From: Candidatus Electryonea clarkiae
Lineage (GTDB): Bacteria > Electryoneota > Electryoneia > Electryoneales > Electryoneaceae
Reading direction: 5' to 3'
Length of the DNA: 64,000 nucleotides
Assembly: GCA_030765455.1 (NCBI GenBank)
Contig: JAVCCM010000111.1
Location: 5,410 to 69,409, forward strand
The notes below the pieces were generated by a model that had not been told where the DNA came from, ran no database searches, and saw only the letters and a program-made list of their open reading frames with translations. Positions 3,557 to 5,036 of the stretch are shown here, piece after piece (position 1 is the stretch's first letter; the number at the start of each line of letters is the position of its first letter). The translations under genes were made by a program, and so were the position numbers.

Positions 3557-3892
3557 TCACCCACAACAGGCATTAGAATTTCCTGTTTCTCCGTTTTCTT
3601 CGCTGCACCCACATACAGGTTCGGTACCGAGAATCGCACCCTGGATGATTGCCGCGGCACAACCAACTCCAGATTCCACCGTGATAGCTTCGGTTTCACA
3701 GTTCAGGGCACATGCACCGCACTCCATGCAAGCGTCACGATTGACTATCCGGGCACGTTTATCGATCATTTTATAAACTTCATGCGGACACACGATCACA
3801 CACATTCGGCAGCCATTACACTTTTCTGCATCAAGTTCAAGTGTGACCACATCGGGAAGATATATCAGCTCACTCATTGTTGTCTCCATCAT
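3557..3892 (-). CDS. hgcB: HgcB, 2x[4Fe-4S] ferredoxin of the mercury methylation pair
   Basis: Motifs CNGCRMCVIVCP and CMECGACALNC (the HgcB-typical CM/IECGAC), plus the C-terminal Cys-rich tail ...VCGCSEENGETGNSNACCG. It lies immediately downstream of hgcA. The probable true start is the ATG at 3877, which overlaps the hgcA stop (ATGAGTGA). Confidence 0.85.
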   Translation of the reverse strand: MMETTMSELIYLPDVVTLELDAEKCNGCRMCVIVCPHEVYKMIDKRARIVNRDACMECGACALNCETEAITVESGVGCAAAIIQGAILGTEPVCGCSEENGETGNSNACCG

Positions 3893-5036
3893 TGAACAGG
3901 GAAATGATCCATAAAATCAGTCCGAATGCCGCGGCAATTATCTGTAATGGCACAGCAACTCTCATCTCCTTACGTACTCCGGAAAGCGAGGTATATGTCG
4001 ATGATCCTGTGAAATTCATTCCCATGAAACTCGAGATCGCTGCTATCATCAATGTCCATGCTGTACCGCCCAGATTATGTCTTCCAGGTAATAACCTCTT
4101 TTTGCCTAAATACCCTGCGATTAATGCATACAATTGCCCTGCCCATGCTCCCTTGGCGGCAAAGGCTTTTCCGGGGAACCAGGGCAATAGAGCCGGTGTC
4201 AAAGCTGTTCCGGAAAGGTATCCACCGCTAAATAAACCAACACTTTTGAATCCATCCTTGCGCATTCGTTCAAGTGAAAACCCGCCCCGTCCCAAACCGG
4301 CTAACAAGAAAAAACCTGTCATAATCATCAATGCATATTTAACCGAACCAGTAATCTCCATCGGAACAAGGACCAGTCTATCCCAAAAACCAAAGGTTAC
4401 CTTGCGCATCTCCGGAGTAGCCTTCAGATTTTTCTCTAAGAATTCAGGAATATCCTCGGACCTGACCGGTCCAAACACCACTTTAAAGCCTGTGAGATCT
4501 TTTACTTCCCGAGCGCGCACACCCACCGCGCCAAGCTGGGGAACAATAATCTTGCGATGTGTGACCTTATTTTCCAGGTTGACAGCTTCGATCCGTTCCA
4601 CCAGTTCTGCAGTACCAAAAGTTCCTTTCCCTGCTGCGCACCAGACATTTATTCCCTTTGTATCCAGGACCAGGATCCAGCCATCTATTCCCTCCAGGTT
4701 GGATCTCAATCGGTCAAATGTCAATTTATAATTTGCAGTAACAAATACATGCGATTCCGGACCGGGATTACCCAACTGGTAGAGTCCGGGACAAATCGCA
4801 TAGCTCATTCTGCCAATTCCCCAGCGTGCTTTCCAGGTACCCAGGATATCACAACAGGAGAGTTCGGAGGTTACTTTCCGATTCTCGCAGCCACATTCAG
4901 CGCTTGATGATCCACAGCATTCAGCTCCATAATTACCCTTTTCTTCAGATGTATTCTCCTCAGAAGAACAACAACATCCTCCGGATATTTCAGTAATTGG
5001 CAAATTATGATAAGTCATCCTTGATCCCATGCACAA
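3870..5036 (-). CDS. hgcA: HgcA, corrinoid protein of the mercury methylation pair
   Basis: Diagnostic cap-helix motif in LDTKGINVWCAAGKGTFGT. Conserved upstream block WGIGR..Y.I.PGLY..GNPGPES.VFVTANYKLTFD. The C-terminal half has multiple hydrophobic TM segments. The N-terminal 62 residues contain 10 Cys. Confidence 0.9.
   Translation of the reverse strand: MCMGSRMTYHNLPITEISGGCCCSSEENTSEEKGNYGAECCGSSSAECGCENRKVTSELSCCDILGTWKARWGIGRMSYAICPGLYQLGNPGPESHVFVTANYKLTFDRLRSNLEGIDGWILVLDTKGINVWCAAGKGTFGTAELVERIEAVNLENKVTHRKIIVPQLGAVGVRAREVKDLTGFKVVFGPVRSEDIPEFLEKNLKATPEMRKVTFGFWDRLVLVPMEITGSVKYALMIMTGFFLLAGLGRGGFSLERMRKDGFKSVGLFSGGYLSGTALTPALLPWFPGKAFAAKGAWAGQLYALIAGYLGKKRLLPGRHNLGGTAWTLMIAAISSFMGMNFTGSSTYTSLSGVRKEMRVAVPLQIIAAAFGLILWIISLFNDGDNNE

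What the first reader, a model, noticed from the sequence alone, without database searches (positions are those of the whole stretch)
3557..5036. hgcA-hgcB mercury-methylation gene pair
The 388-aa ORF carries the diagnostic HgcA cap-helix motif NVWCAAGK (in LDTKGINVWCAAGKGTFGT) inside a CFeSP-like corrinoid domain, followed by a multi-TM C-terminal half. The adjacent 111-aa ORF is a 2x[4Fe-4S] ferredoxin with the HgcB-type CMECGAC motif and a terminal vicinal Cys pair. The two genes are translationally coupled (ATGAGTGA at 3870-3877). This predicts methylmercury production by an organism that otherwise shows T9SS/FCB-type features, and hgcAB is known to be phylogenetically patchy.
Basis: partly seen in the sequence, partly recalled or inferred. 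Interest (0 to 1): 0.75.

Follow-up and report, generated by a model that had tools for sequence, protein, structure and literature searches.

The report
Genuine hgcAB mercury-methylation gene pair
The window carries an intact, textbook hgcA-hgcB gene pair, which predicts but does not prove methylmercury production, in the chromosome of an uncultured FCB-group bacterium from the anoxic water of an Antarctic lake; it is real but ordinary, since such genes have already been reported in this kind of organism.

Summary
On the minus strand, hgcA (3870..5018; 382 aa from the ATG, 388 aa from the upstream TTG) overlaps hgcB (3557..3877; 106 aa) by 8 nt (ATGAGTGA).

**Family assignment**
- HgcA scores 437.5 bits on the NCBIfam HgcA equivalog (cutoff 275). 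It fails the HgcAB-like fusion and CFeSP models.
- HgcB scores 116.7 bits (cutoff 99).

**Features**
- HgcA has NVWCAAGK with the cap-helix Cys, a corrinoid domain like the CFeSP C-terminal domain, and five predicted TM helices.
- The model matches the deposited HgcA model 9a0b_A (43% identity).
- HgcB has two [4Fe-4S] motifs, the Cys73 equivalent and a C-terminal CC.

**Origin**
- The identical protein occurs in Ace Lake (Antarctica) metagenomes.
- Flanking genes are chromosomal housekeeping genes plus a phsABC-pmpAB-sulfurtransferase cluster described for Ca. Electryonea clarkiae.
- The host is therefore probably Ca. Electryoneota (AABM5-125-24/LCP-89-like), but this is inferred.

**Novelty**
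- An hgc-expressing MAG of that phylum (Baltic Sea) and "Calditrichaeota" hgcAB MAGs (Saanich Inlet) are already published, so this is a new member of a known kind.
- The HgcA branch is divergent: 67% identity to the nearest relative, otherwise 57% or less.
- Its disordered N-terminal tail holds 9 Cys, which is unusual.
- Methylation activity itself is untested.

The parts
3870..5018 (-). hgcA, the corrinoid methyltransferase (382 aa from ATG 5018; alternative starts ATG 5030 and TTG 5036)
   Evidence: NCBIfam NF040863 HgcA_corrinoid scores 437.5 bits (cutoff 275) and covers profile positions 3-323 of 325. The exact 382-aa protein P0001 is in public metagenomes. The N-terminus aligns with P0002.
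4836..5018 (-). N-terminal Cys-rich tail of HgcA (residues 1-61). It holds 9 Cys, as CCC, CC, CxC and CC.
   Evidence: pLDDT is below 50 for residues 1-41. The tail has 9 Cys, against a median of 3 and a maximum of 6 in 56 relatives; 73% of the relatives have at least one CC there.
4404..4880 (-). [quoted passage not shown]
   Evidence: Pfam PF03599 CdhD, E = 2.3e-17. PDB 2h9a/4c1n/4djd, E = 1e-16 to 1e-13. Foldseek rmsd is 1.4-1.9 A over about 125 columns.
4626..4649 (-). Cap-helix motif NVWCAAGK. The Cys (residue 127, codon 4638..4640) is the predicted Co-thiolate ligand.
   Evidence: Read directly from the sequence. The Cys is invariant in 57 aligned homologues and NVWCAAGK is present in all 84 loci examined, three of which (L081-L083) carry this same gene. 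It lies in predicted helix 125-131 and aligns with the Thr of CFeSP.
3891..4367 (-). Transmembrane domain of HgcA with five predicted helices (residues 218-239, 249-276, 286-306, 315-340, 345-376)
   Evidence: AlphaFold2 model, mean pLDDT 82.9 and pTM 0.76. The 1.2 hydropathy threshold picks up three regions, those of helices 1, 4 and 5. The conserved MNFTG..TYTSLSGV motif is present.
3557..3877 (-). hgcB, a 2x[4Fe-4S] ferredoxin (106 aa plus stop)
   Evidence: NCBIfam NF040864 HgcB_ferredoxin scores 116.7 bits (cutoff 99). Pfam Fer4 families match.
3698..3820 (-). The two cluster-binding motifs of HgcB: C20xxC23xxC26xxxC30P and C50xxC53xxC56xxxC60E (CMECGAC)
   Evidence: Cys positions. C[MIVL]EC[GA]AC is present in 81 of 82 related loci.
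3560..3661 (-). HgcB C-terminal extension: Cys73 (GVGCAAAI, codon 3659..3661), C89xC91, and the vicinal pair C104/C105
   Evidence: The roles of Cys73 and the C-terminal Cys pair come from mutagenesis in strain ND132, as summarised in PMC7305189 and PMC11588087.
3870..3877 (-). ATGAGTGA overlap of the hgcA stop and the hgcB start (suggests translational coupling)
   Evidence: Read directly from the sequence. The database gene calls show the same 8-nt overlap.
5019..5104 (-). 86-bp AT-rich spacer upstream of hgcA. No convincing promoter was found, so hgcAB may be co-transcribed with orf228/orf291.
   Evidence: The only sigma-70-like matches are 9 of 12 at 5068-5039, and the number of sites in the region is not above shuffled expectation (10 found, 9.5 expected). 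No terminator was found on the minus strand after hgcB.

Best explanation
**What it is.** These are true orthologues of HgcA and HgcB, encoded as a translationally coupled pair in the chromosome of an uncultured FCB-group bacterium. The bacterium lives in the anoxic zone of Ace Lake, Antarctica. It is probably Ca. Electryoneota (AABM5-125-24/LCP-89-like), possibly Ca. Electryonea clarkiae.

**Mechanism (inferred from work on the Pseudodesulfovibrio mercurii ND132 enzyme).**
1. HgcA is anchored in the membrane by five helices and binds cobalamin in its cytoplasmic Rossmann-like domain.
2. HgcB's two [4Fe-4S] clusters reduce Co(II) to Co(I).
3. S-adenosylmethionine methylates Co(I), giving methylcob(III)alamin with the cap-helix Cys (Cys127 here) as lower thiolate ligand.
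4. The methyl group passes to Hg(II), giving CH3Hg+.
5. HgcB Cys73 and the flexible C-terminal Cys pair (C104/C105) are thought to handle Hg(II)/CH3Hg+.

**Shown here:** gene integrity, family membership, every catalytic and ligand residue, the domain architecture, and the chromosomal context.

**Inferred:** cofactor binding, activity, expression, and the exact taxon.
For: **Family membership**
- HgcA and HgcB pass the curated equivalog cutoffs and fail the paralogue models.
- The CFeSP-like domain carries Cys in place of the CFeSP Thr.
- Catalytic and structural positions are invariant across 57 homologues. NVWCAAGK is present in all 84 loci examined, three of which carry this same gene.
- The five-helix TM domain and cap helix are predicted at pLDDT 82.9.
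- The best structural match is 9a0b_A, the deposited HgcA model, at 43% identity and E = 4.5e-21.
- HgcB has both cluster motifs, the Cys73 equivalent and a CC tail, like 63 of 82 relatives.
- The 8-nt start/stop overlap is present.

**Mechanism and residue roles**
- PMC11588087 and PMC7305189.

**Chromosomal, native context**
- Housekeeping genes lie on the same 64 kb: accD, folP, folE, coaD, pta, nadB, glgA.
- hgcAB G+C is 46-49%, within the range of neighbouring native genes (38-46%).

**Origin and taxon**
- The identical protein is on contigs of JGI 3300025642 and 3300023253. Both are Ace Lake metagenomes.
- The phsABC + two Pmp/YedE-like genes + sulfurtransferase cluster matches the description for Ca. 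Electryonea clarkiae, one of whose MAGs is 3300025642_6.
- The best named PhsA hit is candidate division LCP-89 at 71%.
- The best named Pta hits are Calditrichota and Ca. Hatepunaea (Electryoneota) at 54-57%.
- All these groups belong to the FCB group.
Against: - No methylation assay, transcript or protein evidence exists for this gene pair.
- No cultured member of the lineage exists.
- The Ace Lake paper on Electryoneota does not mention hgcA or mercury, so the link between this contig and that MAG is circumstantial.
- The same phs-pmp-sulfurtransferase cluster also occurs in Caldithrix abyssi and, in a variant form, in Ca. Lernaella.
- No named protein above 75% identity was found for any marker tried.
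- No recognisable promoter or terminator flanks the pair.
- The native physiological role of HgcAB is unknown in any organism.
Confidence: 0.85

Rival explanations
1. It is a non-methylating paralogue. It would be either an HgcAB-like fusion-type protein or a CFeSP/CdhE-type corrinoid protein of the Wood-Ljungdahl pathway, paired with an unrelated ferredoxin.
For: The corrinoid domain is homologous to the CFeSP large subunit. Several databases label close homologues 'acetyl-CoA synthase subunit gamma'.
Against: - The protein scores below cutoff on both paralogue models (201.6 vs 285; 88.4 vs 306) and well above cutoff on HgcA.
- Only the last ~125 residues of CFeSP align. The CFeSP N-terminal FeS and TIM-barrel domains are absent and a 5-helix TM domain is present instead.
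- The cap-helix Cys is present.
- The two genes are separate, not fused.
- No acs/cdh genes occur in the 64 kb.
Confidence: 0.02
2. It is a true HgcAB orthologue that contributes no methylmercury in situ. It could be silent, very weakly expressed, or serving a different and still unknown native reaction, with Hg methylation at most a side activity.
For: - HgcAB is expressed at extremely low levels even in ND132.
- Lin et al. found that many hgcA genes were not transcribed and detected no Calditrichaeota HgcA in metaproteomes.
- No recognisable promoter was found.
- The neighbouring cysK is a pseudogene, so local decay occurs.
Against: - Both ORFs are intact, with every functionally tested residue conserved.
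- The sequence is 100% identical at protein level in independent assemblies.
- An AABM5-125-24 MAG in the Baltic Sea does transcribe hgc.
Confidence: 0.2
3. The pair is a recent horizontal acquisition rather than an ancestral trait of the lineage. The host phylum would then say little about who methylates.
For: - HgcA evolution is marked by extensive HGT (PMC7305189).
- The nearest named relatives belong to many phyla at nearly equal distance (52-57%).
- hgcAB G+C (46-49%) is above the window mean of 42.5% and above its immediate neighbours at 38-39%.
- The immediate neighbours orf228 and orf291 are found at no other hgcAB locus.
Against: - No transposase, integrase or tRNA lies nearby.
- The G+C equals that of native genes such as phsA and the RND pump, and GC3 is within the native range.
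- In a rough NJ tree, the window + PJEL01 pair groups with two of the three Zixibacteria sequences, which are also FCB.
- The long private branch (67% to the nearest relative, otherwise 57% or less) argues against a recent transfer from any sampled donor.
Confidence: 0.15

Closest known systems
HgcA/HgcB of Pseudodesulfovibrio mercurii (Desulfovibrio desulfuricans) ND132, the experimentally characterised enzyme
   Same: - Two-gene arrangement.
- Corrinoid domain with the cap-helix Cys in N(V/I)WCA(A/G)GK.
- Five TM helices.
- HgcB with two [4Fe-4S] motifs, a Cys at position 73 and a C-terminal Cys pair.
- Full-length structural match to 9a0b_A, the deposited HgcA model of the HgcAB complex (entry from the ND132 modelling study, PMC7305189), at 43% identity.
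   Different: - Only about 43% identical.
- The disordered N-terminal tail holds 9 Cys.
- The HgcB tail is longer and has an extra CxC.
- The second cluster motif ends in CE rather than CP.
- The host is an FCB-group bacterium, not a Desulfobacterota.
- Activity is untested.
hgc+ MAG bin142 of phylum AABM5-125-24 in euxinic Baltic Sea water (Capo et al. 2022, PMC9494745)
   Same: Probably the same candidate phylum, and a similar habitat (stratified, sulfidic, marine-derived water). The Baltic MAG carries and transcribes hgc.
   Different: The sequences could not be compared here. The window's lineage comes from an Antarctic meromictic lake, and its nearest HgcA in all collections searched is only 67% identical.
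'Calditrichaeota' hgcAB MAGs from Saanich Inlet (Lin et al. 2021, PMC8163782)
   Same: - FCB-group hosts, with hgcB contiguous with hgcA.
- MAG G+C of 42.4-42.9% against 42.5% for the window.
- HgcA reported to cluster with PVC/Planctomycetes sequences, as the window's top hits do.
   Different: A different site. Identity to those sequences was not tested because the sequences are not held. Named Calditrichota Pta proteins are only 54-57% identical to the window's.
Corrinoid iron-sulfur protein large subunit (AcsC/CdhE; PDB 2h9a, 4c1n, 4djd)
   Same: Homologous Rossmann-like corrinoid-binding domain with a cap helix (about 30-33% identity, rmsd 1.4-1.9 A).
   Different: CFeSP has Thr where HgcA has Cys. 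It also has an N-terminal [4Fe-4S] domain and a TIM barrel, has no TM domain, and works with MeTr and ACS. None of these partners is encoded in the window.
HgcAB-like fusion proteins (NCBIfam NF043039)
   Same: Shared corrinoid, TM and ferredoxin modules (201.6 and 55.9 bits).
   Different: The window has two separate genes and both scores are below the 285-bit cutoff. It is not a member.

Membership tests
HgcA (mercury methylation corrinoid protein) | Scores above the curated cutoff of the HgcA equivalog HMM and higher than on the paralogue models | tested here: met
   NF040863 scores 437.5 bits (cutoff 275). NF043039 scores 201.6 (cutoff 285) and the CdhE/gamma model scores 88.4 (cutoff 306).
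HgcA (mercury methylation corrinoid protein) | Cap-helix motif N(V/I)WCA(A/G)GK with the strictly conserved Cys (Cys93 in ND132) in place of the CFeSP Thr | tested here: met
   NVWCAAGK lies at residues 124-131. It aligns to VLTA of 2h9a and sits in a predicted helix.
HgcA (mercury methylation corrinoid protein) | [quoted passage not shown] | tested here: met
   PF03599, E = 2.3e-17. PDB sequence hits at 1e-16 and Foldseek hits.
HgcA (mercury methylation corrinoid protein) | C-terminal transmembrane domain of five helices, which is essential for activity | tested here: met
   Five helices are predicted at residues 218-376. The 1.2 hydropathy threshold picks up three of them, helices 1, 4 and 5. 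The HMM match covers profile positions 3-323 of 325.
HgcA (mercury methylation corrinoid protein) | Binds cobalamin and transfers a methyl group to Hg(II) | not testable with these tools
   Needs protein expression and an isotope-tracer methylation assay.
HgcB (mercury methylation ferredoxin) | Scores above the curated cutoff of the HgcB equivalog HMM | tested here: met
   NF040864 scores 116.7 bits (cutoff 99).
HgcB (mercury methylation ferredoxin) | Two CxxCxxCxxxC(P) [4Fe-4S] motifs, the second containing C(M/I)ECGA | tested here: met
   C20/23/26/30-P and C50/53/56/60-E, with CMECGAC. The P-to-E change after the last Cys also varies among relatives.
HgcB (mercury methylation ferredoxin) | Strictly conserved Cys about 12 residues after the second motif (Cys73 in ND132), plus at least one C-terminal Cys, usually a pair | tested here: met
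   Cys73 lies in GVGCAAAI. C89, C91, C104 and C105 lie in the tail.
hgcAB gene pair | hgcB immediately downstream of hgcA on the same strand | tested here: met
   8-nt overlap at 3870..3877. 82 of the 84 loci examined also carry an HgcB match, three of them being this same gene.
HgcAB-like fusion paralogues | Single fused polypeptide scoring above the NF043039 cutoff | tested here: not met
   There are two ORFs, scoring 201.6 and 55.9 bits against a cutoff of 285.
Host: Ca. Electryoneota (AABM5-125-24) | Phylogenomic placement by concatenated marker genes | tested here: inconclusive
   Only indirect evidence is available.
- The source metagenome is the same as for MAG 3300025642_6.
- The phs-pmp-sulfurtransferase cluster matches the published description.
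- PhsA is 71% identical to an LCP-89 protein, and Pta is 56% identical to Ca. Hatepunaea and 54-57% to Calditrichota.
- No rRNA or tRNA gene lies in the window.

The most novel reading that the evidence does not exclude
The disordered N-terminal tail of HgcA holds nine cysteines arranged as CCC, CC, CxC and CC. This is the richest of 57 homologues, and 73% of the others carry at least one CC there. The tail could be a functional thiol arm that captures Hg(II) at the membrane surface and hands it to the HgcB Cys pair or the cobalamin site. This would be analogous to NmerA and the C-terminal Cys pair of MerA. I found no paper describing this part of HgcA. If the reading is right, this lineage would carry an expanded version of an overlooked substrate-delivery module.
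Probability: 0.2. Interest if true: 0.5.

Novelty: new member of a known kind. Interest (0 to 1): 0.3.

Why it matters
- It adds a genetically well-supported candidate methylmercury producer to the anoxic zone of Ace Lake. I found no paper in the searched library that links Ace Lake to hgcA.
- It ties hgcAB to a 64-kb chromosomal context in a little-known FCB lineage. That context includes acetate fermentation genes and a thiosulfate/polysulfide reductase.
- For mercury biogeochemistry this is incremental. hgcAB is already known to be widespread in uncultured anaerobes, including this candidate phylum.
- The practical value is a divergent reference sequence for hgc databases and primer or HMM design: 67% identity to its nearest relative, 57% or less to the rest.
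- It is also a natural variant with an unusually Cys-rich N-terminal tail, which could be used to test how Hg(II) reaches the active site.

Tried and rejected
1. **Conserved hgc-linked neighbours.** orf228 (5105..5791) and the lipoprotein-like orf291 (5904..6779) have no Pfam or NCBIfam family. Neither has a homologue in about 160 other hgcAB loci. orf228 belongs to a widespread, uncharacterised family of about 210-aa HEAT/ARM-repeat proteins (766 representative clusters). It is not hgc-specific.
2. **ArsR-type regulator next to hgcAB.** None is present. The only nearby regulator is a MarR-type gene that heads the RND efflux operon at 9100..15142.
3. **Promoter and terminator.** Nothing rises above shuffled expectation.
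5. **Linking the contig to the published MAG.** No supplementary files are held for the Ace Lake paper. The Lin et al. supplements hold no sequences or IMG ids.
6. **Marinimicrobia as host (my first guess).** Rejected. Those MAGs have 37% G+C, their HgcA falls among Euryarchaeota, and no Marinimicrobia hit appeared.
7. **Closer relatives.** The metagenome scan found none beyond PJEL01 at 67%.
8. **G+C as an HGT signal.** Not informative.
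Full report
**Observation**

The sequence shows LDTKGINVWCAAGKGTFGT, CMECGAC and a C-terminal ...NACCG. It also shows the octamer ATGAGTGA at 3877..3870, in which the hgcB ATG overlaps the hgcA TGA.

Database gene callers start HgcA at ATG 5018 (382 aa) and HgcB at ATG 3877 (106 aa), with the same overlap. The closest homologue aligns from that same Met. I use those coordinates.

**Identity**

- **HgcA model scores.** The NCBIfam HgcA equivalog model gives 437.5 bits (cutoff 275) over profile positions 3-323 of 325. The HgcAB-like fusion model gives 201.6 bits (cutoff 285) and the acetyl-CoA decarbonylase/synthase gamma-subunit model gives 88.4 bits (cutoff 306).
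- **HgcB model score.** 116.7 bits on its equivalog (cutoff 99).
- **Pfam.** Only the CdhD domain and Fer4 families match.
- **Solved structures.** By sequence, the only matches are CFeSP large subunits (E = 1e-16). Only their last ~125 residues align, and VWCA of the query aligns with VLTA of 2h9a. The HgcA Cys therefore replaces the CFeSP Thr.
- **Conservation.** In a 57-sequence alignment the motif residues N124, V125, W126, C127, A129 and G130 are invariant (A128 and K131 nearly so), and the TM-domain motif MNFTG..TYTSLSGV is invariant or nearly invariant. NVWCAAGK is present in all 84 loci examined, three of which carry this same gene.
- **Structure model.** An AlphaFold2 model (mean pLDDT 82.9, pTM 0.76) has four parts: a disordered residue 1-41 tail, an alpha/beta domain at residues 47-205, a helix at 125-131 that carries the Cys, and five long helices between residues 218 and 376.
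- **Best structural match.** Foldseek's best hit is 9a0b_A, the deposited HgcA model of the HgcAB complex (43% identity, 329 columns, E = 4.5e-21). CFeSP structures follow.
- **HgcB residues.** The Cys residues are C20/23/26/30, C50/53/56/60, C73 (GVGCAAAI), C89/C91 and C104/C105. Most relatives show the same pattern. It matches the residues shown by mutagenesis to matter in ND132: Cys93 in HgcA, and Cys73 and Cys94/95 in HgcB.

**Mechanism**

By homology with the purified ND132 complex (PMC11588087), the steps are:
1. HgcB reduces the HgcA-bound cobalamin to Co(I).
2. SAM methylates Co(I), giving a Cys-ligated methylcob(III)alamin.
3. The methyl group is transferred to Hg(II).

The HgcB tail cysteines probably shuttle Hg(II)/CH3Hg+ (PMC7305189). 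None of these steps was or could be tested here.

**Context and host**

The 64 kb is ordinary chromosome. It carries accD, folP, folE, coaD, pta, an aspartate aminotransferase, nadB, glgA, lpxL-like and hutI genes, several two-component systems, and an RND efflux operon with a MarR regulator. It has no tRNA or rRNA gene. The gene just downstream of hgcB is an FG-GAP protein with a T9SS sorting tail.

The evidence on the source and the host is as follows.
- **Source metagenomes.** The exact HgcA is found on contigs of JGI samples 3300025642 and 3300023253 and on one ENA assembly. The two JGI samples are Ace Lake metagenomes.
- **Matching gene cluster.** The window also carries phsA/B/C-like genes, two YedE/Pmp-like half-transporters and a rhodanese (47730..53475). 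Williams et al. describe exactly this cluster for Ca. Electryonea clarkiae, which has a MAG from sample 3300025642.
- **Named hits.** The best named PhsA hit is candidate division LCP-89 (71%). The best named Pta hits are Calditrichota and Ca. Hatepunaea meridiana (54-57%). All are FCB-group taxa.

I conclude that the host is an FCB bacterium, most likely Electryoneota. This is an inference, not a placement.

**Relatives**

Thousands of HgcA homologues exist. The window's protein has one relative at 67% identity (a PJEL01 metagenome contig). All others are at 57% or less, spread over Zixibacteria, Bacteroidales, KSB1, Planctomycetota, Aminicenantes, Desulfobacterota and Firmicutes. In a rough NJ tree, the window + PJEL01 pair groups with two of the three Zixibacteria sequences.

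G+C of hgcAB (46-49%) is within the range of native genes in the window, and no mobility genes flank the pair. There is thus no positive sign of recent transfer.

**Novelty**

- Lin et al. 2021 reported hgcAB in Saanich Inlet 'Calditrichaeota' MAGs (42.4-42.9% G+C, against 42.5% for the window).
- Capo et al. 2022 reported an hgc-transcribing AABM5-125-24 MAG in the Baltic Sea.
- The Ace Lake Electryoneota paper does not mention hgcA or mercury. No paper in the library combines 'Ace Lake' with 'hgcA'.

This is therefore a new, rather divergent member of a known kind, in a lineage and habitat type where such genes are expected.

**What is slightly unusual**

- **Cys-rich N-terminal tail.** The tail of HgcA before WKARWG has 9 Cys in 61 residues. 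The median in 56 relatives is 3 and the maximum is 6, and 73% of them have at least one CC there. I found no paper discussing this region. It may be a thiol arm for Hg(II), but this is speculative.
- **Broken cysK nearby.** A cysK gene about 2 kb upstream, on the same strand, is broken by a 1-nt frameshift. The break is reproduced in independent assemblies.
- **cysK near hgcAB elsewhere.** Intact cysK lies next to hgcAB in 4 of about 160 other loci, and twice it is directly adjacent on the same strand. By my own rough estimate this is above chance: about 0.5 expected in about 1.2 Mb of flanking DNA. The signal is weak, and I found no paper reporting it.

**Verdict**

The feature is a real hgcAB pair of modest interest.

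Noticed in passing
window 7043..7995 (-): cysK (cysteine synthase A) is split by a 1-nt frameshift near 7705-7712 into a 113-aa N-terminal ORF (7654..7995) and a 221-aa C-terminal ORF (7043..7708). These match model positions 3-90 and 91-296. The same split is present in two independent assemblies (L081, L082), so it is a real pseudogene or recoding site, not an assembly error.
   Followed up: partly
L002:2801-3811, L032:5659-6834, L001:10981-11871, L126:7193-8107; window 7043..7995: Cysteine synthase genes lie within about 3 kb of hgcAB in 4 of about 160 other loci. In a Zixibacteria MAG the order is hgcA-hgcB-cysK and in a Syntrophobacteraceae MAG it is cysK-hgcA-hgcB, in both cases on the same strand. 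This is above my rough chance expectation of about 0.5 in 1.2 Mb of flanks. No paper in the library combines 'hgcAB' with 'cysteine synthase'. It could relate to thiol or cysteine control of Hg(II) availability, or it could be coincidence.
   Followed up: partly
window 4836..5018 (-): The HgcA N-terminal tail is predicted to be disordered over residues 1-41 and holds nine Cys (CCC, CC, CxC, CC). This is the highest count among 57 homologues. Most relatives have at least one CC in this tail.
   Followed up: partly
window 47730..53475 (+): A phsA/psrA-like molybdopterin oxidoreductase, a 4Fe-4S subunit and an NrfD-like membrane subunit are followed by two YedE/Pmp-like half-transporters and a rhodanese. 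This is the thiosulfate/polysulfide reductase cluster described for Ca. Electryonea clarkiae and Caldithrix abyssi.
   Followed up: partly
window 32201..32246 (-): Match to the Rfam Acido-Lenti-1 sRNA motif (RF01687) at 41.9 bits against a gathering score of 37. It lies just upstream of a BatA/VWA aerotolerance-type gene (32367..34457).
   Followed up: no
window 5105..5791 (-) and 5904..6779 (-): Two genes lie directly upstream of hgcA on the same strand (gaps of 86 and 112 bp). One is a 228-aa HEAT/ARM-repeat protein from a widespread family that has no Pfam or NCBIfam model of its own (766 representative clusters). The other is a 291-aa lipoprotein-like protein with no family match. Neither occurs at other hgcAB loci.
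   Followed up: yes
window 39468..41818 (+): A 557-aa protein with a C-terminal Mrr-type restriction endonuclease domain is followed by a TerB-domain protein. This may be a small defence or stress module. It is unrelated to hgcAB.
   Followed up: no
window 9100..15142 (-): An RND efflux operon (TolC-like outer-membrane protein, adaptor, permease) headed by a MarR-type regulator lies about 4 kb upstream of hgcA. The permease scores better on multidrug (HAE) models than on CusA/CzcA models, so there is no evidence for a metal-specific pump.
   Followed up: partly
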